Positions 4,188 through 46,081 of a stretch of DNA of 64,000 nucleotides are shown in pieces (position 1 is the first letter of the stretch; the number at the start of each line of letters is the position of its first letter). Made by a program: the position numbers and the translations under genes. This stretch comes from Promethearchaeota archaeon (GTDB lineage: Archaea > Asgardarchaeota > Lokiarchaeia > Sigyniarchaeales > SOKP01). The stretch covers positions 160,001-224,000 of the forward strand of contig JAHPZA010000006.1 in the NCBI GenBank assembly GCA_019058445.1, read 5' to 3'. Under the pieces are notes generated by a model. It had not been told where the DNA came from, made no database searches, and was given only the letters and a program-made list of their open reading frames with translations.

Positions 4188-6230
4188 TTATATACTATTA
4201 CCCATTTTATAACCTCGAGCAACAGCTTCCATTACCGTTTCTGGTTTACGAGCATCTCCGATTTTCTCTACTTTAATAGTACCTAGTTGCTTGATTTCTT
4301 TATAAAGAGCATCGTTCGGTTCGACCCCGGTAGCATAATAGATATAATCTATATCACTAATTGCGTTTTCTTTACCCGAAGAGTCTGAATAATTTACATA
4401 ATTTTCGCCGATTTCAGTGACTTTTACACTTGTAAGGAATTTCACACCTAAAGCATCGCATTTATCAAGAAGTACCCATTTCGTAGTCCTTCCTAACGCA
4501 GATCCTAATTTTGGTAACATTTCAAGAACGGTAACCTTATTCCTTCCCTTATGCATCATATCTAACGCAATTTGAGGCTCTAAGGCCTTATAGAATGTAA
4601 GAAAATCAAATGCTTCACGGCTTAATGTTCCATATTTTGCAATGTATATTGCTAATTCTATACCAGTGGCTCCGCCTCCTATAATAACATTGTTCTTACC
4701 AACTGGAGCATCACCGCTTAAAGCATCATTTGCCCAATATACATTTGCTCTGTCAATACCGGGAATAGGAGGTTTTATGGGATTTGAACCAGTGGCGACA
4801 AATGCAACGTCAGGATTGAATTCTTTTACTATATCAATAGTGACATTTTGTTGGAAATGTACATTGATGCCGTATTTCTGAATCCAATAGTTATAATTAT
4901 CTATCATACGTTTAAATTCGTTTCTTCCTGGTGGAATCCAGATTATGTTTAATAACCCGCCAATTTTATCATCCTTCTCAAAAATATGAACATCATGTCC
5001 TCTAATTGCCGCTATTCTCGCAGCCTCTAATCCTCCTGCTCCTGCTCCAATAATCATAACTTTTTTCTTTTCTTTCAATGGTTTCAGTTCAGTTCGGGCT
5101 TCATTTCCCGCTCGAGCATTCCTTAAACACGTGACAGGCATCATCCTGAATACCTGGTCAAAGCATCCTTGATTGCAGCCAATACAGTTCATTATATCTC
5201 TTAATTCACCCTTTTGAGCTTTCATTGGCAGATAAGGATCAGCAATTAACCCTCTTCCAATACAAATAGCATCAGCTTTTCCGGCCATTAAAACTTGTTC
5301 GGCGAGCTCAGGGTTGTTAATTCTATTGGAAGAAAATATAGGAATAGATACACGTTTATGAATATTTTCAGCTAGGTATGTATAACATCCTTCTGGAACA
5401 TCCATTGTTAATTGTGGTGTTTTTGTTTCATGCCAACCACCTGTTACGTTGAAATAATCTAAATATTTACCTAATTCTTCTGCAATAACTACTTTTTCCT
5501 TATATGTATTGCTGCCTGGAACAAAATCATCTCCAGAAATTCGATAGCCAAGAGGGATATCGTCTACTTTAGAACGCATTAATTCAATGGTTTCAATCGG
5601 GAATCTTAAACGATTTTCAAGATCGCCCCCATATTTATCAGTTCTCTTGTTAGTTTTTGGGGAACAAAACTGATCGGTTAAATAACCAGCATTTCCGCAA
5701 ATCTCTACTGCATCGAAGCCTGCTTTCTTAGCTCTAATTGTAGCGTCGGCAAAAGCCTCTTGTTCACGCTTTATATCTTCAAGACTCATTTCCTTAGGAG
5801 TGGTCTTACTAAAATTACTATAAACTGCAGAGGGGGCAATAGGTGTTCTGCCAATTATCTGTGGGAATGCGTTTAGGCCTCAATGGTAAATCCATTTCGA
5901 GGAAGCCCCGCCATGGTATAATTGGCAACAGATCTTTACATCATCTCGAGCATTGTGTACGGCTTCAGTTAATTTCTGTAAATCAGGAATAAATTTATCG
6001 TCATCAACTGCAATCATCGATGGTAAACCCTTTGCATAAACGTCTACATAACACCCTCCTACAATTAGCATTCCAGCACCTCCCTTAGCCCTTTCAACGT
6101 AAAAATCTATCAATTTGTCAGTGATAAACCCATTTTTTGCCAAGTTGAGATGCATCGCAGGCATTATAATACGATTAGACACATCCATATCCTTTATTTT
6201 AAAAGGAGTAAATAGTTTAAAGAACTTCAT
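4188..6230 (-). CDS. fadH: 2,4-dienoyl-CoA reductase / OYE-family NADH:flavin oxidoreductase; two exons (6230-5903, 5872-4188), about 670 aa after removing a 30-nt intron
   Basis: ORF 5880-6230 (NRIIMPAM, ERAKGGAG, QLYHGG) and ORF 4188-5789 (AGFDAVEI, NKRTDKYGG, CIGCNQGC, GAGAGG) are in the same frame. Splicing gives QLYHGGAYAFPQIIGRTPIAPSA, matching the family QLxHxGxYA...P.APSA pattern. Confidence 0.85.
5873..5902 (-). other. Putative 30-nt bulge-helix-bulge (BHB) mRNA intron in the fadH-like gene
   Basis: mRNA: GCG[GGGC]UU^C CUCGAAAUGG-AUUUA-CCAUUGAG [GCCU]AA^A CGC. 4-bp central helix, two 3-nt bulges, inner and outer helices; contains the in-frame UGA. Confidence 0.85.
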
Positions 6231-6445
6231 ATCTCATACTCATTAAAAAGTTTTTTTTAACTAGAAATAAAACGGGAATTTATTAAAATTAATTGAATTT
6301 AATTTAAAATGCTTCTCTATTTAGAAATTTAAGTTTAAAAAGTAATTTATGTGCTTTGAGAAAATAAATATAAAAAGTATAAAAAATGGAGAATAAGGAA
6401 TAATTTTTTATCATTGAGCAATTATAATAATAAAATATTATACTT

Positions 6446-7285
6446 ATGGTTAGACTAAAAATGAGTAATGATGCTATATTAATTGAGGAAAATGAAGATA
6501 AAACTGTCACCACAATTAAAATGAATCGGCTCGCGAAAAAAAACGCGATCGGCTATGATATGATGGTGGGACTACTGGATGCGATTGATAAAGTTGAACG
6601 AACTAATGCGAGAGTAGTAATTATCACGGGAACTGATGATCTTTTCAGCTCTGGGATAGATCTAAACTTTTTAACGGGTCAAGACGCTGGACCTGAGGGA
6701 GTTCTTCCAGATCTAAAAGTCCCACGTAATTTTAGATACTTTGCAAATACATGGATCCATCCAATATTTACCAAAATCGAAAAAATGGAAAAGCCAGTGA
6801 TAGCTCGAATTAATGGAGTGTGCTTTGGACTGGCTTTTGAATTAGCACTCGCTTGTGATTTCCGATTCTGTTCAGAAAATGCAATATTTAGCATGCTTGA
6901 AACAAAAATAGGTATGAATCCTGATGTAGGAGGGACAATTAGGCTGGTAAGATTGGTTGGAATCCCAAATGCTAAGGATATCATCTTAACAGGAAGAAGA
7001 TTTGATGGGAACGAGGCTTATCGGTTAGGTGTGGTAAATAGGGTTGGAAAAACCCCTCAAGAGATGGATGAGATAATTAAAAATTATGTTGATGAATTAA
7101 TTGACAGTGCCCCATTAGCCGTAGGTTTGGCCAAGAAGCTTATAGATGATTGTTATGGGCAATCAACTGCTCTTGGTTTGGAATTGGAAACATTAGTGAG
7201 CTCACAATTATTACAAACCAAAGATGCGATGAGTGGTGCACTTGCCCGTTTACAAAAAACTAAAGCCAAATGGAGATGGAAATAA
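6446..7285 (+). CDS. Enoyl-CoA hydratase/isomerase (crotonase)
   Basis: FSSGIDL, KPVIARING...GLAFELALACDFR, ETKIG..PD.GG. Confidence 0.92.
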   Translation: MVRLKMSNDAILIEENEDKTVTTIKMNRLAKKNAIGYDMMVGLLDAIDKVERTNARVVIITGTDDLFSSGIDLNFLTGQDAGPEGVLPDLKVPRNFRYFANTWIHPIFTKIEKMEKPVIARINGVCFGLAFELALACDFRFCSENAIFSMLETKIGMNPDVGGTIRLVRLVGIPNAKDIILTGRRFDGNEAYRLGVVNRVGKTPQEMDEIIKNYVDELIDSAPLAVGLAKKLIDDCYGQSTALGLELETLVSSQLLQTKDAMSGALARLQKTKAKWRWK

Positions 7286-7388
7286 TTTTTTTTAATAATT
7301 TCATTCTTTTTTCTTTTTAATATTTAAGTCATTAGATTATAAAACTCATATTCAATGGTTTTTAAGATAATAATAATTCTGTATAACT

Positions 7389-8489: not shown

Positions 8490-8597
8490 TTAAATTACTA
8501 AATTTAATTCATTCTCTTTTTTACAGCTTATTAATAAAAGCAGTTTTAGAAATATCATGAATAATTTTTAAATGAAGTATTAATTTTGGGAAATATC

Positions 8598-9695: not shown

Positions 9696-9919
9696 TTTAT
9701 TACTTTTTTCAAATTCTTTAAGGATTTTTAATTTTTGACTCGTTATGTTTCTATAAATATAACGTAGTTTATTTTAGTAGTGTTTGGTTAAAAAACAGTT
9801 AAATATATTTAGTATAAAAATTCAAATTCTAATTAACAACATTTATTGAAAAGAAACCTAAAGTTAAGTACAATTTTGGAAAAAAATAAAATTTACAATA
9901 ATAAAATAGGAGAAAAAAA

Positions 9920-11206: not shown

Positions 11207-11230
11207 AATTAAATAAAAGGAGGAATAAAA

Positions 11231-13105: not shown

Positions 13106-13200
13106 ACTTCTCAATATTTTTTTTTATTATTTATTTTTTTTTAAGATCTCTTTACTATACCCTTAAAATACTACATTCTACATAAAAAAAAAGAAAAAAA

Positions 13201-14388: not shown

Positions 14389-14391
14389 CGT

Positions 14392-15945: not shown

Positions 15946-16177
15946 AAGAATTAACCTTCTCAGATTACTTTTAAAATTTTTTTTTTCTCTTGTGTTTTTA
16001 TTGATTAGATCAAATTCTATCTATGCCGAAATTTAGTAGACTTAGTATATTCTTAACCTTTTTAAAGAAATAAAAGATTTATAAGTGTCTATACCGAAGA
16101 GAATATAACCAAAATTTAAAATAAGAAATATAATTTTACTTAAAAATTTCAACTAAAAACGACAAAAATTAAAAAAA

Positions 16178-16786: not shown

Positions 16787-16890
16787 GAAAAGTAAATTCA
16801 ACATTTTAGAAGAAAAATTTTTTTTTCCCCTATTGGGGAGTGTTTAGTTAAAATCACTGTAAGTGAGGCATTAGAATTAATTGTAAGAGT

Positions 16891-17706
16891 TTAACGTCCT
16901 ACAAATACAGGATCTCTTTTTTCTTTAAGAGCATCCATCGATTCCCTAAAATCTTTTGATGCAAAGAGTTTTCTTAGTGCCTTATTTTCTAAATCGAGTG
17001 TTTTACTTAATATATCACTGAAATAGGCATGCATTGTTTTCTTCATTAATTTTATTGAAAGACTCGGCCCCTTAGGAGGGATAAGTCGAAGCGCTTGCTC
17101 TCTTGCATACGGGATTAATTCATCAGCAGGAAGTACTTTATTAATAAGTCCAAGTTCATAAGCTTCTTGAGCGTGTACTTGCTTGCCGAAATAACAGATT
17201 TCTTTCGCTTTTTGAAAGCCAATTAGAAAAGGAAGAACAAAATTAAGTGCAAATTCAGGCACTATAGCTCTCCTGCTAAAATAAAATCCCAGCCATGCCT
17301 CTTGTGCCATATAAATTAAATCGGAACATGCTAACGGCATAGTAACACCACCTCCTATTGCCATTCCATTAATCGCGCTAATCACGGGTTTATCAAAATT
17401 CCACATTTTCAAGCATAATTTCTTCTGTGCTATATCCATAAGGTCAATCTCGGGAAATTTCTGCATTTTATGAAACATTTCCTTTTTAAAATATCCTCCA
17501 GAGGTAAACGCGTCCCCTTTTGGATCCCCAGTCATAATTAAAACTTTCGCATTTTTATCTTTTTCCATGTCTTCGATGACAGTATAAATTTCTAAAAAGG
17601 TAATGTATGTGACTGCATTCCGTATTTCAGGTCTACTCAGAGTGACCGTACAAATCCCATTTTCTTCCTTTTCATATTTTATATCTTCAAAATCTTCAAT
17701 TTGCAT
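16891..17706 (-). CDS. Enoyl-CoA hydratase/isomerase
   Basis: AFTSGG, KPVISAINGMAIGGG, AQEAYELGLINKV. Confidence 0.92.
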   Translation of the reverse strand: MQIEDFEDIKYEKEENGICTVTLSRPEIRNAVTYITFLEIYTVIEDMEKDKNAKVLIMTGDPKGDAFTSGGYFKKEMFHKMQKFPEIDLMDIAQKKLCLKMWNFDKPVISAINGMAIGGGVTMPLACSDLIYMAQEAWLGFYFSRRAIVPEFALNFVLPFLIGFQKAKEICYFGKQVHAQEAYELGLINKVLPADELIPYAREQALRLIPPKGPSLSIKLMKKTMHAYFSDILSKTLDLENKALRKLFASKDFRESMDALKEKRDPVFVGR

Positions 17707-17855
17707 TGTTTTTTGCCATTTCTTAATTATTTCAAGTTAATAATTCAAGTCTAAGTAAATTTAATTTATAAACTCAAATTATTTTATTTTCCAAATTAAT
17801 ATAATTATAAAAAAATAATATGAAAAAAAAAATAACCGATTTATCGATTTTTCTA

Positions 17856-19544
17856 CTATTCTTGTCTAAGTTCCTTTTTCAAAACCTTTCCAACCAAACT
17901 TAACGGTAATTCTTCCTTAAACTCATAGATCTTGGGAACTTCGTATTTTGAAAGATGTTCTTGAGCATATTGTTTTATACTTTCCTTTACTGCTTCTGAT
18001 GCCTCAACTCCCTCTTTCAATTGAACTACTGCCTTTACAATTTCGGCACCAGGTCTGTCTGGATTAGGGACACCTATAATTGCTATTAATTGAATGTCAG
18101 GATGTTTTGTCATTATATCTTCAACGTGTACACTATATACTTTAAATCCACTGACAATTAACATATCCTTTGTACGATCGACAATAGTTAAATAACCTTC
18201 CTCATCAAAGACACCTACATCCCCTGTATGAAGCCATCCATCGATGTATGTTTTCGCCGTAGCTTCTGGTTTTTTATAATATCGTTTAGTAATCTGCGGA
18301 CCTTTTAAGCATACTTCGCCGGGCTGTCCAACTGGTACTTCTTCCCCCGTTTCTACATCTACAAGTTTGAAGTCAGTATCGGGGAGAGGTAGACCTACAG
18401 TTCCAATTTTTTTCTTCCCTAAAGCGGGATTTACTGATACTAAAACTGCAGATTCCGTCATTCCATAAACTTCAACGAATTTATTCTCTGAGTGGAAATC
18501 TTTTTCAAAGTCTCTAACTGCTTCAGCTGGAAAAGGGGCTGCCCCAGAAATATATAAATTTATATTATCTAGAGTTTCAGGTGGTATTTTTTTAGCCTTA
18601 GGATTATCCTGAATCATTAAAAATAAAGTAGGGACGTTTCCAAATACTGTTGGCTTTTTATCAATTATTTCTTTTATCATGTGGTTAGTGTCTCTCGGAT
18701 TAGCGATGATGATATGTGATGCTCCGATATAGGTTAAGAATAAACCAACGAATAATCCTGCTAAATGAAAGTATGGAAATGCCGAAATAACTATATCTGT
18801 TCCGTGTTTTCTGTTAAGCCATGTATTGAACTGAATACTATTCGCACATAAATTAGCATGTGTAATTTCAGTTCCTTTAGGGCGTCCAGTAGTTCCTCCA
18901 GTGTATTGTATTAACATTAAATCTTTATGAGGATCCATCGAAACTGGTTTTACATCGATTTCCGTATCGATAGCTTCTTGGAAAGGCACAACTTTTTTGC
19001 CTGGATATGGAACCATTTTTCCTTTTGGAATTTTTCCTAGTAGTTTCGCTATCCCTACTATAAACCCCGGGAGATTCATCATCTCAGCTATATTTGTAGG
19101 AATTATAACTTCGAGCTTTGGAATTTTATCTAAAATGTTTCCAATTATCTTTTCATGGACGATATCCATTGTAACAAGAAATTTTGCATCTGAATCATTT
19201 ATCTGATATGCAATTTCATCAGCACTCATAAGAGGTGAACATCCTGATGACACTCCTCCCGCTATATATGTCCCATAAAGTGCGATTAAATACTGCGGGC
19301 AGTTTGGGATATTCATTGCTACAACATCTCCCTTTTTCAATCCATTTTTTTGCAAAAAGGTGGCAAATTTCCGAGAAAGCTCTAATACTTCCCTATATGT
19401 CAGCACATTCTTCATAAAATAAAATGCTACTCTGTCCGGAAAGGCTTCCATAGCCCGTGTTAAAATTGTCCCAAAATCTTCATATTTATAGGTAAGGCTC
19501 TCAGGAACATGTTTATCATATGATTTTAACCAAATTTTTTCCAT
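17856..19544 (-). CDS. Long-chain acyl-CoA synthetase (AMP-forming)
   Basis: YTGGTTGRPKG, YGMTE, WLHTGD, DRTKD, GKVLK. Confidence 0.93.
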   Translation of the reverse strand: MEKIWLKSYDKHVPESLTYKYEDFGTILTRAMEAFPDRVAFYFMKNVLTYREVLELSRKFATFLQKNGLKKGDVVAMNIPNCPQYLIALYGTYIAGGVSSGCSPLMSADEIAYQINDSDAKFLVTMDIVHEKIIGNILDKIPKLEVIIPTNIAEMMNLPGFIVGIAKLLGKIPKGKMVPYPGKKVVPFQEAIDTEIDVKPVSMDPHKDLMLIQYTGGTTGRPKGTEITHANLCANSIQFNTWLNRKHGTDIVISAFPYFHLAGLFVGLFLTYIGASHIIIANPRDTNHMIKEIIDKKPTVFGNVPTLFLMIQDNPKAKKIPPETLDNINLYISGAAPFPAEAVRDFEKDFHSENKFVEVYGMTESAVLVSVNPALGKKKIGTVGLPLPDTDFKLVDVETGEEVPVGQPGEVCLKGPQITKRYYKKPEATAKTYIDGWLHTGDVGVFDEEGYLTIVDRTKDMLIVSGFKVYSVHVEDIMTKHPDIQLIAIIGVPNPDRPGAEIVKAVVQLKEGVEASEAVKESIKQYAQEHLSKYEVPKIYEFKEELPLSLVGKVLKKELRQE

Positions 19545-19694
19545 TTAACTCACTATTTTCAAAATTAATTTGTTAATTATTTATTTTGCTTTAGTGGAAT
19601 TTAATACTTTTCAAAATCTTGAATTAAATTATTCATTCTAATTAGAGAAAATAATAAAAAAAAGAGATTTAAAATTTAGAAATCTTTACATTAG

Positions 19695-20210
19695 CTATTT
19701 TTCTTGTTCCTTTTTGTTAAGTTCAACTGCCGGATCTTCAAGAGCATCATAATAATCGATATCAAACCACGAACCCGTCCTTTCTTTTGCCCATACAGCT
19801 TTTACTGGCATTCCAATATAGACAGAATGAAAATCAATATCTTTCGGCATATTATGAAGCCAAATTGTGTCGGCTCCATCTTGACGAACTGCAATAACGG
19901 GTAATGGTCTTTCACGATTTTTATCATCAGCCTCATAAGTGGCGGAGCCAGTAGCTATAGTTCCAGTCTCTGGCAAACGAACCCATTGATCTGGCATTAC
20001 TAAGCATCGTCCACATATTAATCTCGGGGGAAATGAGACTGTATTGCACGACCGGCATTTTAATCCTAAACAAACTCCATCTTTTAGCCCTTTAAGAAAG
20101 ACTTTTGTTCTCGACAAATTAAATTTATATTTATAATTCATTAAATACCAGTTTCCATGCAAGGTTCTTGTCTTTTTATATTGCTTTTTAATATAGTCTG
20201 GTAGTGGCAT
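19695..20210 (-). CDS. DUF35 family Zn-ribbon/OB-fold protein
   Basis: CRSC...PPRLICGRC, QDGAD, VKAVW. Confidence 0.88.
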   Translation of the reverse strand: MPLPDYIKKQYKKTRTLHGNWYLMNYKYKFNLSRTKVFLKGLKDGVCLGLKCRSCNTVSFPPRLICGRCLVMPDQWVRLPETGTIATGSATYEADDKNRERPLPVIAVRQDGADTIWLHNMPKDIDFHSVYIGMPVKAVWAKERTGSWFDIDYYDALEDPAVELNKKEQEK

Positions 20211-20218
20211 TCTTTATT

Positions 20219-21463
20219 TCACCTCCATTTTCTCTGTGGTTCATCGGACATCACCACATGAGTTATTAAATTGATAGAACCGCCCCAACCATGTCCTAAA
20301 GCAGTGTGAACTGTTTTTGGTACTTGGTTGCCAGCTTTTCCCATAATTTGTAGAGCAGCTTCAGCTGGCCGTTCCATAGCAGAAGCTCCAATCGCATTTG
20401 TCGAATTGACGCCGCCAGAACAGTTCACAGGTAATTCTCCATTAAGCGCAGTAACTCCATTCCGATATGCTTCTGGAGCCTGATTTTCTTCAAAAAGCCC
20501 AATTCTTTCAACCCACATCAATTCTTGATTTGGGAATGGAGAATAAACTTCCGCATAATCAATTTCCTTATTGGGAAATGAAATACCTGCTTGTCCATAT
20601 GCCACCTCAGCTGATTTCATCGCTCCCAGTTGTTCGCACGGATCAGTTTGGCCTGCACCTGCACAATCTATCCCTATAATGGCCGATTCATTGCTGTAAC
20701 TCGCAACACCATTGATATAGACGGGAATGTCCGCTATTTGCTTCGCTTTTTCTTCAGTTGTAATTAACATCGCGCAAGCACCATCAGAGGCAGGACATAC
20801 CATTCCAAATCTCAGAGGAAAAGAGATATATGGTGTGTCGAGTACATCCTCTATGGTAATCGTAGGCATTTTTAAATGCGTCCACCAATTTTTTGCAGCA
20901 TTTCTTCTATTTTGGACAACAACGCGGGCTAGATCCTCTTCAGTTGCCCGACTACGCCTCATATAATTCATAGCTTGATAAGAAGCTACTCCAATTGCAG
21001 CTCCGGAACCCATATTTGATCTCATCCTCTCAATGGTATAGCCTAAATCAGAAAAAATAGAAAATTCTCCTAATGCTACAGATGCTAAACCTACTGTGGT
21101 ATCCCCACATGATTGCTGCTCGAAACCGATGCATAAAACCATGTCGTATAATCCTGAGGCTACACTGTAATAACCAGCTATTGTAACAGAACCTCCTGTA
21201 GTTCCGCCTGTGGTAACCCGGAGCAACGGTTTATTTTTAGAGGCCATGTGATCTCCCATCCATAATTCTGGCATATTCGCCCCTTCAAATGCGGGCATAT
21301 TACCATTGACAACCGCATCTATGTCCTTCCAATCGATATTTGCTTTTGTAATACAATCCTCAACCGCTTCATTGACCAATTCTGCCATGTTCACATCAGA
21401 ACGTTTAGATGCGTGTTCACAAAACCCACAGCTTATTATTGCTGGTTGTACTTTATGTGCCAT
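20219..21463 (-). CDS. Thiolase-like protein, Ltp3-like (lacks the canonical N-terminal catalytic Cys)
   Basis: RVTTGGTTGG, CPASDGACA, VNCSGGVNSTNAIGA. Confidence 0.85.
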   Translation of the reverse strand: MAHKVQPAIISCGFCEHASKRSDVNMAELVNEAVEDCITKANIDWKDIDAVVNGNMPAFEGANMPELWMGDHMASKNKPLLRVTTGGTTGGSVTIAGYYSVASGLYDMVLCIGFEQQSCGDTTVGLASVALGEFSIFSDLGYTIERMRSNMGSGAAIGVASYQAMNYMRRSRATEEDLARVVVQNRRNAAKNWWTHLKMPTITIEDVLDTPYISFPLRFGMVCPASDGACAMLITTEEKAKQIADIPVYINGVASYSNESAIIGIDCAGAGQTDPCEQLGAMKSAEVAYGQAGISFPNKEIDYAEVYSPFPNQELMWVERIGLFEENQAPEAYRNGVTALNGELPVNCSGGVNSTNAIGASAMERPAEAALQIMGKAGNQVPKTVHTALGHGWGGSINLITHVVMSDEPQRKWR

Positions 21464-21466
21464 TTT

Positions 21467-22606
21467 TTAACCACCTCCCTCCAATACAAATAATATACTA
21501 TTTTGAGCACAAAAACCCACCTGTCCAGAAGCAATTGCTTTCTTGGCACCGGAAACTTGATACTCATCTGCTTCCCCTCGAAGTTGCTTCGCAGCTTCTA
21601 CTATTCTTGTCAGTCCACAAGCACAAGGAGTAAATGCACTCATCGCCCCTCCAGAAGGATTTAATGCTGATCCTGAATCAAGCAACGTCGCTCCTTTTCC
21701 ATTTTCAGCCAATTTTGCTGCCTCTGCTAATATTAATTCTTCACACGATGTATGTCCAAAGAGTTCTGCTACATCAATTTCAGATTTAGGATCACTTATT
21801 CCAGCCATTTTATACGCTTTTTCGGCCGCTTTTTCCATTGAAACGCTTTTGCTTAAATCTCTATCACCTAAATAATAGGTCTCCTGACATTGTCCCATCC
21901 CGGTGATCCACACGGGGGTATCCGTAATTTTTAAACTTTGTCTCTCAGGAGCTAAAATCATCGCAGTTGCCCCATCACATGGGATAGGATACATCAATTC
22001 CCTTAAGGGACTGCTTAAAACCTCAGAATTTAACACATCTTGCACAGAGATATCCGATTTTTTCACATCTGGTAAAGCTAAAGGATTTTTCGCAGAATTC
22101 TTATAACCTTGTACTGCAACCTTCGCAATTTCTTCTTCGCTCACGCCAAATGCTTTCATATAAGCCCTCATTTGCATTCCTCCAGCAGTATATGAGTTTA
22201 TCAAACTTATGGTTCTATCAAAAGTAGGATCTAATTCCAAGATTCTCACTGGCTCATATAAATAGCATGATGGCATGCTAAATCCATATATCATCGCTAA
22301 TTTATGGTTACCTGATAATATTCTATACTGCCCGTAAGCTGCGGCATGCGCTCCATCCATTTCGACTTTAGTCTCGTCCTTCATATAAGCCCCCCCTGCT
22401 TCTACTTTAAAGCAGTTCGAAATAGTTTTTCCATCATAGTAATCGTTCGTGCACGTTACTACAGTGGTAATATCTTTTCTTTTTAAACCAGCAGAATCCA
22501 AGGCTCCCCTCACTGCAGAGTAAATGGCTTCATAGGGACTCATCATCATATCCAGTTCAGGTTTTAGTTGACAATACCCAACAATTCCTACTCGTTCCAT
22601 CTTCAT
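21467..22606 (-). CDS. Thiolase-like protein, Ltp4-like
   Basis: DYYDGKTIS, VEMDGAHA, DGATA, DVAEL, NPSGG. Confidence 0.85.
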   Translation of the reverse strand: MKMERVGIVGYCQLKPELDMMMSPYEAIYSAVRGALDSAGLKRKDITTVVTCTNDYYDGKTISNCFKVEAGGAYMKDETKVEMDGAHAAAYGQYRILSGNHKLAMIYGFSMPSCYLYEPVRILELDPTFDRTISLINSYTAGGMQMRAYMKAFGVSEEEIAKVAVQGYKNSAKNPLALPDVKKSDISVQDVLNSEVLSSPLRELMYPIPCDGATAMILAPERQSLKITDTPVWITGMGQCQETYYLGDRDLSKSVSMEKAAEKAYKMAGISDPKSEIDVAELFGHTSCEELILAEAAKLAENGKGATLLDSGSALNPSGGAMSAFTPCACGLTRIVEAAKQLRGEADEYQVSGAKKAIASGQVGFCAQNSILFVLEGGG

Positions 22607-23082
22607 CCACCTCCCACCGGTTCAAAACCCGCAATATCGTTGGGATGACCTTTAACATTTTTCGCCCATACAACTTTCACCTTCATCCCTTCTTTTAGAG
22701 AATCTGGACTTATGTTTATGATCGGCGCTATTATGCCTGTATCAGCTCCATCAATTTGAATCAATCCCACCATAATGGGTTCCTTTGCCTTTCTTGCTCT
22801 ACGCTCTGTAACATTATAATTAGATACTGTGAAATTTTTTAGTACTCCATTTTCAGGTAATTCCACGAATTCCTCAGCCTTAGCAAAACAGTCACCACAT
22901 CGATTTCTTGGTGGCAAAAACACACGCTGGCACTTGGAACATTTGCTGCCTATAAATTGTTTGTTTTGCAAACCGTCATAGAATTTATCCATTACAATTC
23001 CTACCCAAAAATCAAACTCAGCACGCACCATGCCTCGTTTCACATAAACATCTTGTTCATCTTCAAGATTTAATTTTGAAAT
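22603..23082 (-). CDS. DUF35 family Zn-ribbon/OB-fold protein; probable ATT start at 23082 (ORF track starts at 23043)
   Basis: CSKC...PPRNRCGDC, IDGAD. The frame is open upstream to an ATT that has SD GGTGA 6 nt before it. Confidence 0.85.
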   Translation of the reverse strand: MSKLNLEDEQDVYVKRGMVRAEFDFWVGIVMDKFYDGLQNKQFIGSKCSKCQRVFLPPRNRCGDCFAKAEEFVELPENGVLKNFTVSNYNVTERRARKAKEPIMVGLIQIDGADTGIIAPIINISPDSLKEGMKVKVVWAKNVKGHPNDIAGFEPVGGG

Positions 23083-23267
23083 CGTTCTTCACCCAATATT
23101 TTTTTTTTAGTTTTAATTTAAATTTTAATTATTAATTAATTGGATATCATTATAAATATAAGTTTCAATAAGATATTCAAAAATTTTCAATTACTTAGTT
23201 TGCGAATTGTCAGTAAAAAAGAGAGAAAAAAATAAATTCGCTTTGCTCTTCTAGGAACGTAAATTCT

Positions 23268-23384
23268 TTAAGGAGAACCCTCGCCACAACCTGGAATACT
23301 GACTCCAGCGCTGGCAAGACTCAGTCCATAAGCTAAGGTAAGCATGACCGCTAAAGCGACAATAGTTTTTTTGTGAACATTCAT
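23268..23384 (-). CDS. Small 38-aa putative secreted peptide precursor (not in the ORF track)
   Basis: MNVHKKTIVALAVMLTLAYGLSLASA|GVSIPGCGEGSP: basic N-region, hydrophobic core, ASA cleavage motif. GC-richer than its flanks; T-run downstream. Confidence 0.65.
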   Translation of the reverse strand: MNVHKKTIVALAVMLTLAYGLSLASAGVSIPGCGEGSP

Positions 23385-23493
23385 TTTAGTAACCTACTTA
23401 GAGTTTATAATCATTCGATATTACAAGTAGTATTTACTAATTTATATCCGCTTATTTAAATAACACGAATTTAGAAATTTAGCGAATTAAAAT

Positions 23494-24540
23494 TTATAAT
23501 AATTTTTTCAAAACCACACCTATTTTTTTGATAGCATATTGAATATCATCTTCATTGATTCCGTAATGGGTGACAAAACGAATTCTATGCTTATCGATAT
23601 TAAAGGCCATAACCCCCTCATTGCCGAGAGTTCGTACGACTTTCCCGATTCGAATACCTTCAGGCACAGATATTATCAAAATATTTGTATCAGGGTTTAA
23701 AATTTTTACAGATGAATTAAAACTTGCAATTCCCTCGGCAAGTAATTTCGCATTTTTATGATCCTCTTCGAGTCTTTGAATCCATTTTGGTTCGAGAGCA
23801 ACCAAACCAAATGAGGCAATGATTCCAGCTTGTCTCATGCCTCCTCCTACCATTTTTCTATATTTTCTTGCTTCCGAGATAAAACTTTTAGAACCTGCGA
23901 CTAAAGATCCAACGGGGCACGAAAGTCCCTTTGATAGGCAAAACATAAGGCTATCAACATGCTTAGTGATTTCGGTAACATTCACGCCTAGCCCGATAGC
24001 CGCATTAAATACTCTTGCGCCATCCAAATGGAATTTTAAACCATTTTTGTCTGCAAATTGCTTCATTTCTCTTAAAACTTCAGGTTTAATTATCGCTCCT
24101 CCATGATAGTTATGCGTGTTTTCAGAAGTTAGTAGAGTTATCTTTTGTTCTTTAGCTCTGTTTTTATCGATTATATTTTGAAGCTCATCAATAGAAGGAG
24201 CGCCCCTATTAGAAGAATAGAGATTAACCTTTAATTCTGCAATTTTCGTAGCGCTACTTAATTCATTTTGGTAAATATGACATTGCTCTTCAATTAGGAT
24301 TTCTTCACCACGATTGGTATGAGATAGCATTGCGACGAGGTTAGCTTGTGTACCAGATGTAACATACACCGCCGTTTCCTTTCCGACTATTTTTGCTGCT
24401 TTCTCTTCCAATTTATTAACACTCGGGTCTTCTCCAAAGACATCATCCCCAATGTGTGAATTATCTAAAGATTTGAGCATTTCCCACATTTCAGGAGATG
24501 GTTTTGTAAACGTATCAGACCGCAAATCGACTACTTTCAT
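23494..24540 (-). CDS. ltaE: Low-specificity L-threonine aldolase
   Basis: DLRSDT, GDDVFGEDP, SGTQAN, ENTHN, HLDGAR, CLSKGL, GGGMRQAG. Start at MKVV. Confidence 0.92.
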   Translation of the reverse strand: MKVVDLRSDTFTKPSPEMWEMLKSLDNSHIGDDVFGEDPSVNKLEEKAAKIVGKETAVYVTSGTQANLVAMLSHTNRGEEILIEEQCHIYQNELSSATKIAELKVNLYSSNRGAPSIDELQNIIDKNRAKEQKITLLTSENTHNYHGGAIIKPEVLREMKQFADKNGLKFHLDGARVFNAAIGLGVNVTEITKHVDSLMFCLSKGLSCPVGSLVAGSKSFISEARKYRKMVGGGMRQAGIIASFGLVALEPKWIQRLEEDHKNAKLLAEGIASFNSSVKILNPDTNILIISVPEGIRIGKVVRTLGNEGVMAFNIDKHRIRFVTHYGINEDDIQYAIKKIGVVLKKLL

Positions 24541-24590
24541 ATAGTATCCCAATAAATAATCCTTAAGTGAGCTATAAAGTGAATAAAGGA

Positions 24591-25175
24591 TTAAAAATTA
24601 TATGATGGCAAAAACTCATAGAGTACATCTTCTTCTAAATTTAAAAGAAATTCAGGGGAAATTGTTTTGAGAGGTATTTTTTCTGTCCTTGTAAGGGTAA
24701 TTTTTTCGGTGTCTAACGCTCCATCATACCAATGCTTTAAAAGCCCGATTCTTGAGATTTTTTTGGTATTTAGTAAGCTACGAAGAAAATCCAGCCATCT
24801 CTTTGTTTCATTTTCTTTTTCCTTAGGAGTAAGTTTTTTCCTTAATGTTGAAGAACCTTCCCTTTGCAGTTTTTCTTTTATCCATTGATCAATTTGCTCA
24901 TCCGTCCATTTTTTCTTTTTTAAGTTGCGCACTTTTTGAGAATTAAGTAAATTTTGATATTCCTGTAGATTATTTGAAGACCCTAAAACAGTATCACAGT
25001 CGCAATAGTCTTTTGTTGCTCGCAAATATAGCTCTCCAGAACGAAGCTGAGACAGAATGGATTCATTCTCTATAGGATTAAAGGCCATGTTATATTCATT
25101 AAATATATTGTCTAATTCTTCTAACACAACGCCTTTAGGAAGGGTTGCAGTTATATAAAAACACATATTAACCAT
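24591..25175 (-). CDS. Hypothetical protein (MCFY...YCDC)
   Basis: 194-aa ORF overlapping the upstream gene by 8 nt. Confidence 0.65.
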   Translation of the reverse strand: MVNMCFYITATLPKGVVLEELDNIFNEYNMAFNPIENESILSQLRSGELYLRATKDYCDCDTVLGSSNNLQEYQNLLNSQKVRNLKKKKWTDEQIDQWIKEKLQREGSSTLRKKLTPKEKENETKRWLDFLRSLLNTKKISRIGLLKHWYDGALDTEKITLTRTEKIPLKTISPEFLLNLEEDVLYEFLPSYNF

Positions 25176-25584
25176 TAATTTTACTAGATATTTTACTTTT
25201 TCTTAATTTTTGATAGAGGCAGCGAAGGTTTTTCGCAGAATTTAAATCGGTAGGATCTAGCTCTAAGACCCGGTTATATGCCTCTTCAGCTCTTTTATAA
25301 TCCCCTTTATCATAATAAATAATCGCAAGGCGCCTCCATACGGTTGGGTTGAAATTAGACTTTAATGCTTGCTCATATTCATTTTGATCTAAAAGGATTC
25401 TCTTAACATCACGTCTTACTAATTTGGTATAGCAGCCACAGCAATAAAACTGTAGAGAAGGATGATTCCAGAGCTTTTTTAATTTAATTTCGTCAAAAAC
25501 TTGATTTACTTCTTTAAATTCATCAAAATTCAATAGTTTTTTACAGGCCCAACAATATTTTTTAGAGATAATCATCTTCAACAA
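25168..25584 (-). CDS. Zn-finger plus single TPR protein
   Basis: CWAC...CCGC followed by a TPR (WRRLAIIYYDKGDYKRAEEAYNRVLELDP). Confidence 0.75.
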   Translation of the reverse strand: MLKMIISKKYCWACKKLLNFDEFKEVNQVFDEIKLKKLWNHPSLQFYCCGCYTKLVRRDVKRILLDQNEYEQALKSNFNPTVWRRLAIIYYDKGDYKRAEEAYNRVLELDPTDLNSAKNLRCLYQKLRKSKISSKING

Positions 25585-25644
25585 TAATTAATCAGTGATT
25601 ATAAGATGATAATTCCTTTATATAACATCTTAGTAATGTGAACT

Positions 25645-26826
25645 TTATTTCTGAAATTTTTCCTTAATCGCTTTTTGTTCTTCCCGGGCTTTAAATGGTT
25701 TAGAGGGTTTAGACATATCGAGTGTGCTATCGCACGCCCAACATACGTTTTCCAAATTAGTTAAAGCATTATAACATCTTTCACAATATGAAGTTTTACA
25801 ATTTCTGCAAACAAAGTTAATTCCTATAACTTCCCCCTTACATACCAAGCATATCTTTTTTTCTTTTGAGACAATTACTTCTTCTTCGGTTAATTTTTGA
25901 GGTCTAGTAAAACCTTTAAAGATATCTTCTGGTTCCTTTTCCATTGTTTTCTCAAAGGATACTCTTGAAATAGTGCTTTTAGCCTTTTTCATTTGAACGA
26001 TCCCAAATATTATTAGTATAGAGTATAATGGGATAAATAATAGAATATAAAATTTGGTAGAAACCGGAATAGGGGTGGAGATTAAACTTAAAATAACAAA
26101 TATCATTGACCCATGAAAAAGAATAAGAATTATCCAATGAAAAACTGAATTTAATCTAATAAAGGTATCTAGTTTAATAAAGAGTGGTATAAGAAGTAAT
26201 GTTCCGCAAACGAGCATTACCGTTGGTATAATAGAAGGATGAATTCCGATGTAATATACAGTACTTATAAAAATAAAGGAAGAAAAACCAAAATTAGAGC
26301 CAGTTATAATAAACACTGAAATAATTCTAAGTTCTCTGCTTGATTTAATAGAAAGCTTTATACCAGCATAATTAATTATGTATACATTAAAAAGGAAGGC
26401 AATTGCTATGAAAGTTGAGTCTACAATCATAAAATATAAACCAATCATATTGATTACTGATAATAAATATTTTGTAGATTTAAAGACTCGCTCAAATAGA
26501 AATACGAAAATTGTTGCTCCTATTACCCAGCTCAGTGAGGCAAGATGAAAAAAAATATTCGAGAACATACTCTCATCTGCAATTGCATAAAAACTATGTC
26601 CGACATAATGGCCCTCTACGAAATAAATTGCTAAAAAATAAAAAATGAAATTTAATGTTATCGCAAATATAAACATCATCCCAAATCCATATAATATTAA
26701 TTTTTCATTACGATTCTCATTCTTATAAGCCCGATTCAAGTAAAGTAAGCCTATTAATAGCGTCATAAATATTACTATTATCCACAATGCTCGTTCTAAA
26801 GGATCAAATATTAAAGCTTCGTTCAT
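25645..26826 (-). CDS. Polytopic membrane protein with C-terminal Cys8 RING-like zinc finger
   Basis: About 9 TM segments, then CLVC-x10-CRNC-x4-CERC-x10-CWAC. Confidence 0.75.
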   Translation of the reverse strand: MNEALIFDPLERALWIIVIFMTLLIGLLYLNRAYKNENRNEKLILYGFGMMFIFAITLNFIFYFLAIYFVEGHYVGHSFYAIADESMFSNIFFHLASLSWVIGATIFVFLFERVFKSTKYLLSVINMIGLYFMIVDSTFIAIAFLFNVYIINYAGIKLSIKSSRELRIISVFIITGSNFGFSSFIFISTVYYIGIHPSIIPTVMLVCGTLLLIPLFIKLDTFIRLNSVFHWIILILFHGSMIFVILSLISTPIPVSTKFYILLFIPLYSILIIFGIVQMKKAKSTISRVSFEKTMEKEPEDIFKGFTRPQKLTEEEVIVSKEKKICLVCKGEVIGINFVCRNCKTSYCERCYNALTNLENVCWACDSTLDMSKPSKPFKAREEQKAIKEKFQK

Positions 26827-27076
26827 TTGGCATCAACATTAAATTTCTAATAAATATTAATCTACATAAATGTAATTAATAGTATTCTTAGGAATTTTTA
26901 ATTTATAAATTTTAATTTTGTTTAGTCGTGAAGGAATATTCTAAAAATCTAATTGAGATAATCTTTTTTTCAATTAATAGAATAACTTCTAGAACTAAAA
27001 TAGAAAACATATCAAATTATATGTCATTTTCTATGAAATTATCTCAATAAAGAGAATAAAATAAAAAAAATAGTAA

Positions 27077-27445
27077 TTAAGTTTTAATAATGATTGTAAT
27101 TGCTCTCGTAAGACGGATAACGTCCATAACTTTTCCTTGCTCTACGATGATTTGTTCTCGACTTATTGCGTGGGTAAAATCTCCTTTTCCTTCACATATT
27201 CGTACGATAGCATTCGGATCTCCAGACATAACAATCTCTGCATTTGGGAGTGTTCCATCCACAATTTTTCCTTTCTTCTCCTTAATTTCTAAATAAAAGG
27301 GATCTTCATTCTCCAGATTAAATTGAAAAGTCATATCCCAGTTTACATCCTTGCCAGCAACGTTAGTAACAAATACCGTTTGTGCCTTAGGATTTCCATT
27401 TAAACCTTCAATAACTTTTGTTAAATTTTCTTTTGCAGCTCCCAT
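27077..27445 (-). CDS. SCP2 sterol/lipid-binding domain protein
   Basis: FQFNL...FYLEI..GKIVDG...AEIV...G..D pattern of the SCP2 fold; in an operon with thiolase/DUF35. Confidence 0.75.
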   Translation of the reverse strand: MGAAKENLTKVIEGLNGNPKAQTVFVTNVAGKDVNWDMTFQFNLENEDPFYLEIKEKKGKIVDGTLPNAEIVMSGDPNAIVRICEGKGDFTHAISREQIIVEQGKVMDVIRLTRAITIIIKT

Positions 27446-27447
27446 TT

Positions 27448-27951
27448 TTAAGCACCTCCCTCGTATTCTGGTTTAGCAATCCATCTTTCATACTCATCTT
27501 CAGGTACAAAAAAGAAATCCGTCATTTTACCTTCTCTGTTTTTGGAAAATACCGCTTTAACTCTTCGTCCTTTTTTAACTTTTGAGGGAACTAGATTTTC
27601 TGAAAATATTCCTTGAAATAAAGCAGTGTCAGCTCCATCTAATTTTATAAAACCTATAGAATAGGGTACCGATTTTATAAACGCAGAAGTTGTATACCAA
27701 ACGATAGTGCTAACCTCAATCGTTCCTGTTTGTTTCATTTCAATCCATTCGGTAGGCGAATAACATTCTGAGCAATTAATTCTTGGAGGCATCCATATTT
27801 TCCCGCAATTTGAATTAGTGCATTTAGTTCCTAACAACTTTTTATTGTTCATGACCTCAATAAAGAACTTAGATTGTCCTCCCATCGTGTATTTATAGTT
27901 AATTTTAATTATATCCCTTATTTCATGTGATTGAAAATCTTGCTTGCTCAT
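27448..27951 (-). CDS. DUF35 family Zn-ribbon/OB-fold protein
   Basis: CTNSNCG...PPRINCSEC, KLDGAD, RVKAVF. Confidence 0.88.
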   Translation of the reverse strand: MSKQDFQSHEIRDIIKINYKYTMGGQSKFFIEVMNNKKLLGTKCTNSNCGKIWMPPRINCSECYSPTEWIEMKQTGTIEVSTIVWYTTSAFIKSVPYSIGFIKLDGADTALFQGIFSENLVPSKVKKGRRVKAVFSKNREGKMTDFFFVPEDEYERWIAKPEYEGGA

Positions 27952-29275
27952 GGTTGTTTCAATCCCTCCTCATTCGTCATTACAATAATCGCAGCATATG
28001 CTGCTCCAGGACCTCCAATTGAGTGCGCTATAGCCCTGCCTTTTTCAATTGTTACTTGGTGCTTACCAGCATCTTCTCGAAGTTGTAGTGCTGCTTCTCC
28101 TGTGCTCATAATCCCTGTAGCACCTACAGCGTGACCGCATCCAATCAATCCTCCTGATGGGCAACATGGTACTTCACCATTAATCCATGGCCCTTCTCCT
28201 GGTTTTTCAAAGCTATTTTCAATCCAAGGACCTCCTTCTCCAAAAGGAACAAATCCCAATTCTTCATACGATATAACCTCTTGCCCGCTAAATGCATCAT
28301 GCAGTTCTGCTAAGTCAACTTGTTGCTTTATTTTATTATAATCAAGTCCTGCCATTTTATAAGCTACTTTAGCTGCATTAATATTTGAATATAATCTTCC
28401 CATATCTTCTCTATTACCTATAAAACAGTCAGTATTCGCCGCACCTACACCCGTAATCCAAATTGGTTTTTCAATACCTAATTCCTTAACTTTTTCTTCT
28501 GGTGCTAGAATTAAGGCCGCTGATGCTTCTGAGTAAAGACAACAATCTAACATTTTAAAAGGATAACAAATAATCCTCGAATTCAAGACATCTTCAATTG
28601 TTAAATCCATCGGAGACTGCGCTTTAGGATTAAGCATTGCGTTTCCATGGTTTTTAACGCTAACAATAGCCAAAATTAACTAAACGTTAAAATTTTAAGC
28701 CATATGCTCTTCAGTTGGATTTCCAAATTCCTCAAAATGAGCATTAACCATAGAAACGTAAGAACTAGCTGCCATCATCCCCATAGGATACTCATAAGTC
28801 AAATCTGCTGAATATGCGATGGCATTGAGCACTTCTGGTGTTGTTGTACCTGTTTAAACTTATTAGGGATATCCTAATTGATTTGTTCATCGTAACAATC
28901 GTTACATTTTTCCAGACCAAGACATAGGCATAGGTCTGACAACCCAGAAGCAACTTCAGCATAAGCCATCCTTACAGTATAGCCGCCTGTAGCACCTCCT
29001 GAGGCAATCCGGGTACCTGGCTTATCATTCATCCCGATGTAACTATTAGTAAAAATATCCGGCATGAATTGCCGTTCAAACAGCTCGTTATAAATCCCAT
29101 ACACTGTTGATTCCAAGTCTTTGTGCGTAATTTGTGCTCCGTTCTTATTGGCATCGTCAAGCGCCAATTTTGTCGCGTCATAAGCCAGCTCAAAATAGGT
29201 CTTATCCAAATATCTTGCTCTAAAAGGTGTTATTCCTACACCTATTATCGCTACTTTTCTCACTTTATTTTTCAC
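27948..29275 (-). CDS. Thiolase-like protein in three exons (29275-28883, 28853-28696, 28665-27948), 422 aa after removing two introns
   Basis: N-terminal ORF (VAIIGVG.TPF...GLEK), a 158-nt middle exon (TGTTTPEVLNAIAYSAD...PTEEHMA) and a C-terminal ORF (VSVKNH.NA..NPKA, AELHDAF, PSGGLIGCGHAVGATG). Exons total 1269 nt = 423 codons. Confidence 0.85.
28666..28695 (-). other. Putative 30-nt BHB mRNA intron (thiolase intron 2)
   Basis: AU[GGCU]UA^A AAUUUUAAC-GUUUA-GUUAAUUUU [GGCU]AU^U GU. Contains in-frame UAA and UAG; splicing gives EEHMAYVSVKNH. Confidence 0.75.
28854..28882 (-). other. Putative 29-nt BHB/BHL mRNA intron (thiolase intron 1)
   Basis: [GAAC]AA^A UCAAUUAGG-AUAUC-CCUAAUAA [GUUU]AA^A CAGG. 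Frameshifting and stop-containing; splicing gives DCYDEQTGTTTPEV. Confidence 0.78.
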
Positions 29276-46079: not shown

Positions 46080-46081
46080 GA

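What the first reader, a model, noticed from the sequence alone, without database searches (positions are those of the whole stretch)
5873..28882. Candidate system: small BHB (tRNA-endonuclease-type) introns in metabolic mRNAs of an Asgard-like archaeon
Seen: three insertions of 30, 29 and 30 nt (5873-5902, 28854-28882, 28666-28695) interrupt two lipid-catabolism genes. They differ in sequence but share one architecture: a 4-bp central helix, a 3-nt bulge on each strand, and a 22-23 nt inner hairpin with a 5-nt loop (AUUUA, AUAUC, GUUUA). All carry in-frame stops. Cutting after the 2nd nt of each bulge restores the frame in 3 of 3 cases, giving full-length proteins of 670 and 422 aa. Established: archaeal EndA cuts BHB motifs at exactly these positions and RtcB ligates. 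Such introns are typical of tRNA/rRNA; the classic protein-gene example is crenarchaeal cbf5. Inference: this lineage may splice many ordinary mRNAs, so genes annotated as pseudogenes may be intact. Splicing could also gate beta-oxidation post-transcriptionally, loosely analogous to RtcB-ligated XBP1 splicing in eukaryotes.
Basis: partly seen in the sequence, partly recalled or inferred. Interest (0 to 1): 0.96.

Follow-up and report, generated by a model that had tools for sequence, protein, structure and literature searches.

The report
Tiny tRNA-type introns inside Asgard protein genes
Two ordinary metabolic genes of a Promethearchaeota (Asgard) archaeon are each interrupted by 29-30 base inserts shaped like the motif the archaeal tRNA-splicing enzyme cuts, so this lineage very probably splices ordinary messenger RNAs, which was previously known for essentially one archaeal gene.

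Summary
All three inserts lie on the minus strand at the stated coordinates. Each folds as a canonical bulge-helix-bulge (BHB) motif. Cutting after the second base of each bulge gives proteins of 670 and 422 aa that align without gaps to intron-less orthologs.

- **Relatives:** thiolase orthologs carry 29-34 nt inserts in four neighbourhoods of the gene, and many relatives carry none. All 13 instances give full-length ORFs after BHB-guided excision.
- **Structure:** across 16 independent inserts the 4-bp central helix is 97% paired, against 28-36% when the register is slid.
- **Selection:** exons of intron-bearing genes give dN/dS of 0.025-0.045. Shared introns differ at 7-13% of positions while third codon positions differ at 37-47%.
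- **Essential gene:** single-copy EF-2 is interrupted in three genomes.
- **Enzymes:** an EndA catalytic subunit and RtcB are encoded and intact.

Pseudogene, assembly-artefact and ribosome-hopping explanations are effectively excluded. Splicing itself is inferred; I had no RNA data. The idea that splicing gates beta-oxidation is unsupported.

I found no report of multiple mRNA BHB introns in Asgard archaea. First readers of this scan noted the same kind of insert in other windows of this genome; I re-found four of those genes independently. I could not obtain a clean genome-wide count.

The parts
4188..5872 (-). Gene 1 exon 2. The gene is a 2,4-dienoyl-CoA reductase-like flavoenzyme (Oxidored_FMN + Pyr_redox_2). 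This exon includes the stop codon.
   Evidence: The public gene call is a truncated 533-aa ORF.
5873..5902 (-). Intron I1, 30 nt, phase 1, with an in-frame TGA.
   Evidence: It is exactly 10 extra codons relative to 21 aligned orthologs. It was not found in 30 relatives or about 55 other species. BHB scores are 4/4 central, 2/2 inner closing and 3/3 outer pairs.
5869..5911 (-). Full BHB motif of I1. Outer helix 5911-5909 with 5871-5869. Central helix 5908-5905 with 5878-5875. Bulges 5904-5902 and 5874-5872. Hairpin 5901-5879.
5903..6230 (-). Gene 1 exon 1, starting at the ATG at 6230.
27948..28665 (-). Thiolase exon 3, including the stop codon.
28666..28695 (-). Intron I3 (site C), 30 nt, phase 2, carrying TAA and TAG. 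Central helix 28701-28698 with 28671-28668.
   Evidence: The junction is gapless and gives EEHMA-Y-VSVKNH. An orthologous intron occurs in JGI contigs L002-L004 and in relative G008, with 2-4 differences.
28696..28853 (-). Thiolase exon 2, 52.7 codons.
28854..28882 (-). Intron I2 (site A), 29 nt, phase 0, shifts the frame. Central helix 28888-28885 with 28859-28856. No outer helix, so this is a relaxed HBh' form.
   Evidence: The junction is gapless and gives CYDEQ|TGTTTPE. An orthologous intron in same-genus relative G002 differs at 2 of 29 bases, and one of those changes adds an inner closing pair.
28883..29275 (-). Thiolase exon 1, with the ORF start GTG at 29275. The true start codon was not determined.
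27448..27951 (-). OB-fold (ChsH2_C / DUF35-type) partner gene immediately downstream of the thiolase, overlapping it by 4 nt.
   Evidence: The same gene order is seen in relatives.

Best explanation
The three inserts are archaeal BHB introns located in pre-mRNAs.

In the transcript, four exon bases just upstream of the 5' junction pair with four bases near the 3' end of the insert. This 4-bp helix is flanked on opposite strands by two 3-nt, A-rich bulges. A 22-23 nt intron hairpin closes the inner side, and in I1 and I3 an exon-exon helix closes the outer side.

The genome's splicing endonuclease (EndA) cuts after the second base of each bulge. RtcB then joins the exons and probably circularises the 29-30 nt intron. 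This restores the reading frames of a 670-aa dienoyl-CoA-reductase-like enzyme and a 422-aa thiolase.

Shown here: the architecture, the exact restoration of conserved protein sequence, intron presence and absence among relatives, selection on exons and introns, and the presence of both enzymes.

Inferred: the cleavage and ligation themselves.

The introns most likely are tolerated insertions that persist where the local sequence lets the RNA be spliced. They are probably not regulators of the pathway.
For: 1. Removing exactly the BHB-defined segment gives gapless alignment to 20-21 intron-less orthologs at all three junctions. For I1 only one cut register restores the conserved Tyr; shifting by one base gives Ser or Asn.

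2. Thiolase orthologs in relatives and metagenome contigs carry 29-34 nt inserts in four neighbourhoods, called sites A to D here. At least nine species carry none. In L002 the BHB-defined cut restores the conserved DMTYEYPMG, whereas the aligner's arbitrary gap placement did not. All 13 intron instances in 8 loci give ORFs of 413-422 aa, or 397 aa for one gene cut by a contig end.

3. In 16 independent introns the central helix is 62/64 paired, against 28-36% in slid registers. Inner closing pairs are 81% against 19-41%, and outer pairs 65% against 31-54%. Bulges are 67% A.

4. dN/dS is 0.025-0.045 between orthologs that share an intron, with dS above 1. It is 0.045 for gene 1, and 0.08 and 0.04 for its two exons separately.

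5. Shared introns differ at 7-13% of bases while third codon positions differ at 37-47%. Observed changes keep or add pairs, for example U-A to U-G and U.U to U-A or A-U.

6. EF-2 gives one match in each of 21 genomes. It carries a BHB insert in the window's own genome (G000), in G006 six bases downstream, and in G012 inside the P-loop AHIDHGK|TT. A single Pfam domain spans the insert in EF-2, an acyl-CoA ligase and a Sir2 gene.

7. An EndA catalytic subunit of 202 aa (E 3e-24 to M. jannaschii EndA) and an intact RtcB are encoded.

8. Published analysis assigns Asgard archaea an (alpha-beta)2 EndA with the L1 loop associated with broad specificity (PMC5829648). Asgard tRNA genes are unusually rich in introns (PMC11291895; preprint 10.64898/2026.10.13.758758).
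Against: No transcript, circular-intron or proteome data were available, so splicing has not been observed.

I2 lacks an outer helix and has a weak inner helix base. Two verified sites have only 3 of 4 central pairs. Cleavage of such relaxed motifs depends on an EndA specificity that has not been measured for this lineage.

Only one EndA subunit was detected by Pfam; a beta subunit was not identified.

Loose BHB patterns are frequent by chance in this genome. For about seven of the 16 introns the register was chosen by maximising pairing rather than fixed by a peptide constraint.
Confidence: 0.85

Rival explanations
1. The genes are decaying pseudogenes and the inserts are random insertion scars that happen to fold.
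For: Each insert carries stops or shifts the frame. MFE z-scores of the regions are unremarkable. Loose BHB patterns are common by chance.
Against: dN/dS is 0.025-0.045 with dS above 1 between intron-sharing orthologs. There are no other lesions in any of 8 interrupted thiolase loci. Excision restores conserved residues exactly. Single-copy EF-2 is interrupted in three genomes. The introns are more conserved than synonymous sites.
Confidence: 0.02
2. The ribosome bypasses the inserts by translational hopping, as at T4 gene 60 or the mitochondrial byp elements of Magnusiomyces (both recalled from my own knowledge), without any RNA cutting.
For: The size of 29-34 nt, the hairpin and the in-frame stop right after the take-off region resemble bypass elements.
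Against: Junctions fall inside codons. I1 is phase 1 and rebuilds TAC (Tyr) from T|AC. I3 is phase 2 and rebuilds TAT from TA|T. Hopping cannot assemble a codon from two places. No matching take-off and landing codons are present at I1 or I2 (read). The conserved feature is a 4-bp helix with two 3-nt bulges in EndA register, which hopping does not require.
Confidence: 0.03
3. The inserts are spliced as described, but their main role is regulatory: splicing efficiency gates acyl-CoA or beta-oxidation enzyme production.
For: Both window genes lie in a cluster with an enoyl-CoA hydratase, an acyl-CoA synthetase and three thiolase/OB-fold sets. Two acyl-CoA ligase paralogs elsewhere are also interrupted.
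Against: The same kind of insert sits in EF-2, Sir2 and a ChlD-type gene. I1 was found in none of about 85 orthologs from other genomes. Thiolase introns differ in position and presence even within one genus. No conserved sequence beyond the splice motif was seen.
Confidence: 0.08
4. The inserts are removed from the RNA, but by a nuclease or ligase pair other than EndA and RtcB, or at the DNA level, or they are assembly artefacts.
For: No direct link to EndA was tested. Only the alpha subunit was found.
Against: The register and polarity are exactly those of EndA substrates. Orthologous inserts occur in independent assemblies from JGI, ENA, NCBI and the genome collection, which excludes an artefact. 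A 30-nt insert is far too small for a self-splicing intron. The intron sequences are single-copy in the genome.
Confidence: 0.03

Closest known systems
BHB intron in the cbf5 pre-mRNA of Crenarchaeota (Desulfurococcales and Sulfolobales; PMC2738675)
   Same: A protein-coding gene is interrupted by a short insert that folds with exon sequence into a BHB motif and is removed by the tRNA-splicing endonuclease and a ligase. Gain and loss between related species is also shared.
   Different: cbf5 is a single gene of RNA metabolism. Here many unrelated genes are hit, up to three introns per gene occur in relatives, the introns are a narrow 29-34 nt class, positions turn over within one genus, and the host is an Asgard lineage.
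[quoted passage not shown]
   Same: The motif, the predicted enzymes, the repeated lineage-specific gains, the lack of shared intron sequence families (here), and the use of relaxed motifs are all the same.
   Different: The host RNA is an mRNA, so the outer and central helices must be built from coding sequence and the cut must preserve the reading frame. Neither paper reports protein-gene introns.
HAC1/XBP1 unconventional mRNA splicing in eukaryotes (IRE1 cleavage; ligation by RtcB in animals). Recalled from my own knowledge.
   Same: It is non-spliceosomal, protein-catalysed excision of a small mRNA segment at paired stem-loop sites, followed by RNA ligase joining that restores or changes the frame.
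   Different: The nuclease and motif differ (IRE1, two 7-nt loops). It acts on a single regulated substrate and is stress-gated. No evidence of regulation was found here.
Translational bypass elements (T4 gene 60; byps in Magnusiomyces mitochondria). Recalled from my own knowledge.
   Same: These are short hairpin-containing inserts with stops inside otherwise intact genes.
   Different: Bypass needs matched take-off and landing codons and cannot rebuild split codons. Both features were tested here and not met.
SOS splicing of DNA transposons from animal mRNAs (PMC12779559; abstract seen)
   Same: An inserted element is excised from mRNAs independently of the spliceosome after its base-paired ends are recognised, which rescues interrupted genes.
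   Different: The hosts are animals, the trigger is transposon inverted repeats, and the elements are multi-copy. Here the inserts are single-copy and in BHB register.

Membership tests
Archaeal BHB (EndA-type) intron | Two 3-nt bulges on opposite strands separated by a 4-bp helix, in the canonical polarity (each bulge 3' of its helix segment). | tested here: met
   I1, I2 and I3 all have 4/4 central pairs. Of the 17 sites tabulated, 15 have 4/4 and 2 have 3/4. In the set of 16 independent introns, 62/64 cells are paired against 28-36% in slid registers.
Archaeal BHB (EndA-type) intron | Flanking helices on both sides of the motif (hBHBh'), each of at least about 2 bp. | tested here: inconclusive
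   The inner helix is closed by 2 bp in I1 and I3, and by 1 bp in I2. The outer helix has 3 bp in I1, 2 bp in I3 and none in I2. Over 16 introns the inner closing pairs are 81% and the outer pairs 65%. I2 is a relaxed HBh' form.
Archaeal BHB (EndA-type) intron | Cleavage after the second bulge base on each strand yields correctly joined exons. | tested here: met
   Three of three window junctions and all 13 thiolase-family instances restore full-length proteins co-linear with orthologs.
Archaeal BHB (EndA-type) intron | The host encodes the splicing endonuclease and an RtcB-type ligase. | tested here: met
   EndA N- and C-terminal domains lie in one 202-aa ORF at contig C9:770313-770921. RtcB is at C1:114713-116020 with no internal stops. 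A beta subunit was not identified.
Archaeal BHB (EndA-type) intron | Spliced RNA and excised, usually circular, intron observed; cleavage by EndA in vitro. | not testable with these tools
   No transcriptome data were available. No protein identical to a spliced product turned up among the database hits.
Translational bypass element | Matching take-off and landing codons, with the junction at codon boundaries. | tested here: not met
   I1 is phase 1 and I3 is phase 2, and both rebuild a conserved Tyr codon across the junction. No cognate landing codon is present.
Miniature transposable element (MITE or IS remnant) | Multiple related copies in the genome, with terminal inverted repeats and target-site duplication. 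| tested here: not met
   Each own-genome intron matches only itself, and introns taken from relatives match only their ortholog or nothing. Other hits are chance 13-21-mers, apart from one 18-nt exact match (E 0.001) that I did not examine. No consistent target duplication was seen in the 17 junctions.
Group I or group II self-splicing intron | A catalytic RNA core of hundreds of nucleotides. | tested here: not met
   The inserts are 29-34 nt. There is no Rfam family match in the window.

The most novel reading that the evidence does not exclude
A Promethearchaeia lineage, and several of its relatives, may maintain a genome-wide and evolutionarily mobile population of EndA/RtcB-spliced micro-introns in ordinary and essential mRNAs.

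These introns are gained, lost and shifted by a few bases between close relatives. One example is EF-2 in G000 versus G006: the two introns share most positions by eye and sit 6 nt apart.

This would be a prokaryotic precedent, in the closest relatives of eukaryotes, for routine mRNA splicing and intron turnover. It would also mean that many fragmented genes in Asgard MAGs are intact.
Probability: 0.6. Interest if true: 0.92.

Novelty: new variant of a known kind. Interest (0 to 1): 0.85.

Why it matters
Protein-catalysed BHB splicing is textbook for archaeal tRNA and rRNA. For mRNA it rests essentially on one gene, cbf5.

Here the same motif interrupts metabolic genes and the essential EF-2 gene in an Asgard lineage. 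Presence and absence vary between close relatives, and there is clear selection on both exons and introns.

If RNA data confirm it, several things follow:
- Routine mRNA splicing exists in the archaeal group closest to eukaryotes.
- Intron gain, loss and position shift can be studied in a compact genome.
- Gene callers are systematically truncating or splitting genes in Asgard MAGs, which distorts metabolic reconstructions and pseudogene counts.

It also gives a direct test bed: short, defined substrates for Asgard EndA.

Tried and rejected
1. **Loose genome-wide scans.** I scanned for a BHB pattern plus bridging of two open frames, with mirror-motif and shifted controls, a Shine-Dalgarno filter and a codon-usage filter. 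There was no usable excess. Noise from gene junctions and spurious AT-rich ORFs swamps the signal. Only under strict criteria is there a small excess at 30 nt (8 against 2). I therefore give no genome-wide count.

2. **Paralog-based, motif-free census**. It has low sensitivity. It found 23 split pairs, of which four imply an insert of 29-30 nt, and I1 was also recovered with an implied 42 nt. It missed the thiolase.

3. **A false positive in the window.** The pair 45144-46079 and 46055-47020 looked like a 29-nt split gene. It is two complete tandem CbiA/ParA-Fer4 genes.

4. **MAFFT alignment of 11 introns** for the count of structure pairs. The aligner broke the structural register, so I did the pair counts by script instead.

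5. **Search for a spliced product.** I looked for a database protein identical to a spliced product as a proxy for cDNA. None appeared among the cluster representatives.

6. **A flavin-reductase-like gene** at contig C10:5858-5887. The Pfam match starts after the insert, so it is inconclusive.

7. **ARAGORN on the genome**. It returned 23 mostly doubtful tRNAs and was not useful for comparing intron sizes.

8. **Literature searches**. I found no report of multiple mRNA BHB introns in Asgard archaea. The library is incomplete, so this is not proof of absence.
Full report
**What is there.** The window is contig C6:160001-224000 of a 4.6-Mb, 10-contig genome with about 31% GC. Its closest named relatives are Promethearchaeota / Promethearchaeia MAGs, that is Asgard archaea.

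Both genes lie on the minus strand. Gene 1 (4188-6230) carries Oxidored_FMN and Pyr_redox_2 domains, and some database sources name its orthologs 2,4-dienoyl-CoA reductase. Gene 2 (27948-29275) is a thiolase followed by its OB-fold (ChsH2_C / DUF35-type) partner.

The neighbourhood also holds an enoyl-CoA hydratase, an acyl-CoA synthetase and two further thiolase/OB-fold sets. An acyl-CoA metabolism context is therefore fair. The specific label "lipid catabolism" remains an inference.

**The inserts.** Each has the layout of a canonical hBHBh' motif:

- four exon bases
- a 3-nt bulge that contains the 5' cut
- a 22-23 nt hairpin with a 5-nt loop
- four intron bases that pair with those four exon bases
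- a second 3-nt bulge that contains the 3' cut

I checked the polarity against the tRNA case, in which the anticodon-side exon bases form the central helix with the 3' part of the intron. The polarity here is the correct one.

I1 also has a 3-bp exon-exon outer helix and I3 a shorter one. I2 has none and its inner helix base is weak, so it is a relaxed form.

**Is it an insert, and is the cut exact?** A read-through translation of gene 1 has exactly ten extra codons relative to 21 orthologs of 669-670 aa. The BHB-defined excision gives GGA-Y-AFPQ, which is the ortholog consensus. Of 30 offsets tested, only this one does so. Moving the cuts by one base gives Ser or Asn instead of Tyr.

The spliced thiolase (422 aa) aligns without gaps across both junctions to 20 homologs.

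**Relatives.** Among 30 related genomes and several metagenome contigs, thiolase orthologs carry 29-34 nt inserts in four neighbourhoods of the gene, near residues 131, 152, 183 and 311 (sites A to D). At least nine species have none.

- The site A intron is shared with a same-genus genome (2 of 29 bases differ).
- The site C intron is shared with three JGI contigs and another same-genus genome (2-4 of 30 differ).
- Other lineages have unrelated intron sequences 3-8 nt away from these positions, or at the same position (site D).

In each case the BHB register predicts the cut that restores the conserved peptide. In contig L002 it yields DMTYEYPMG, where the aligner's arbitrary gap placement gave a non-conserved residue. 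All 13 instances give full-length ORFs after excision.

I1 was found in no other genome, among 30 relatives and about 55 further species. It is therefore either a recent gain or a survivor found only here.

**Statistics.** At the 17 sites tabulated the central helix has 4 of 4 pairs in 15 and 3 of 4 in 2. At other offsets, 4 of 4 occurs at 1.6%.

For the nine independent introns whose register is fixed by a peptide constraint, my rough joint chance for the central helix alone is about 1e-11. This figure is my own arithmetic from the frequencies.

Over 16 independent introns, pairing in register compares with slid registers as follows:

| Helix | In register | Slid registers |
|---|---|---|
| Central (4 bp) | 97% | 28-36% |
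| Inner closing (2 bp) | 81% | 19-41% |
| Outer (3 bp) | 65% | 31-54% |

For about seven of these 16 introns the register was picked by best pairing, which inflates the figure somewhat.

**Selection.**

- dN/dS between thiolase genes that share an intron is 0.025-0.045, with dS above 1.
- For gene 1 against its two closest orthologs dN/dS is 0.045. Its two exons separately give 0.08 and 0.04.
- Shared introns differ at 7-13% of bases. The surrounding exons differ at 15-21% overall and at 37-47% at third codon positions. The intron sequence is therefore itself constrained.
- Observed intron changes keep or create pairs.

**Scope in this genome.** A motif-free census based on paralogs found four further genes whose two halves are separated by an implied 29-30 nt. 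These are two acyl-CoA ligase paralogs, a Sir2 gene and EF-2. My in-frame scan added a ChlD-type gene.

A single Pfam domain spans the insert in EF-2, one ligase and Sir2.

EF-2 gives one match in each of 21 genomes. It is interrupted in three of them: in G000, in G006 six bases downstream by an intron that shares most positions with the G000 intron by eye, and in G012 inside the P-loop. An essential single-copy gene cannot be a pseudogene, so removal of the insert must be efficient.

First readers of this scan had flagged EF-2, the ChlD-type gene and the ligases, together with further genes, in other windows of this genome. I re-found those four genes independently. I did not test the others.

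I could not get a clean total. Loose BHB patterns are too common by chance in this AT-rich genome. My guess is tens of introns.

**Machinery and context.** The genome encodes an EndA catalytic subunit and an intact RtcB. Only 16 tRNA matches reach Rfam's threshold in a genome that is 92.6% complete, and many of those are 100-138 nt long. This suggests heavily interrupted tRNA genes, as reported for other Asgard classes.

Asgard EndA is described as (alpha-beta)2 with the L1 loop that is linked to broad specificity.

The intron sequences are single-copy in the genome, and the window has no Rfam match.

**Verdict.** The inserts are real, non-random and almost certainly removed from the RNA at BHB-defined bonds. 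The mechanism is a known one used on an unusual class of substrates and at an unusual scale.

Pseudogene, artefact, transposon-copy and ribosome-hopping readings fail specific tests. The regulatory gating idea is not supported. What is missing is direct RNA evidence.

Noticed in passing
Own genome, whole (for example C2:114737-114874 and C1:129711-129812): Only 16 tRNA matches reach Rfam's gathering score in a genome that is 92.6% complete, and many are 100-138 nt long. ARAGORN finds 23 tRNAs, mostly doubtful. The tRNA genes are probably heavily interrupted by non-canonical introns.
   Followed up: partly
EF-2 loci L124 (G000), L128 (G006) and L135 (G012): The EF-2 introns of G000 and G006 share most positions by eye but sit 6 nt apart, next to the near-repeat hexamers ACAGAT and TCAGAT. 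Thiolase introns of different lineages likewise sit 3-8 nt apart. This looks like intron sliding or repeated use of splice-competent spots.
   Followed up: partly
Own genome: C4:158207-158209(-), C10:552017-552019(+), C3:330819-330821(+), C10:650299-650301(+), C3:482797-482799(+), C10:33981-33983(-): Six gene pairs supported by paralogs are separated by a single in-frame stop with no extra bases. These may be pseudogenes, recoded stops or sequencing errors. Stop identities are mixed.
   Followed up: no
window 45144-47020 (+): Two tandem paralogous CbiA/ParA P-loop plus 4Fe-4S genes overlap by 25 nt in different frames. They mimic a split gene but each is complete.
   Followed up: yes
window 16891-29275 (-): Three thiolase / OB-fold (ChsH2-type) gene sets lie together with an enoyl-CoA hydratase and an acyl-CoA synthetase. 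Only one of the three thiolases is interrupted.
   Followed up: partly
Own genome C1:27020-27126 and C9:655982-656074: ARAGORN calls a tRNA-SeC (tca) and a tRNA-Pyl (cta), each with an intron. Both also reach the Rfam tRNA threshold. I did not check for Sec or Pyl machinery.
   Followed up: no
All 16 independent introns: Lengths fall in a narrow set: 30 nt in nine, 29 nt in five and 34 nt in two. Both bulges are about 67% A. I have no explanation for the narrow size class.
   Followed up: no
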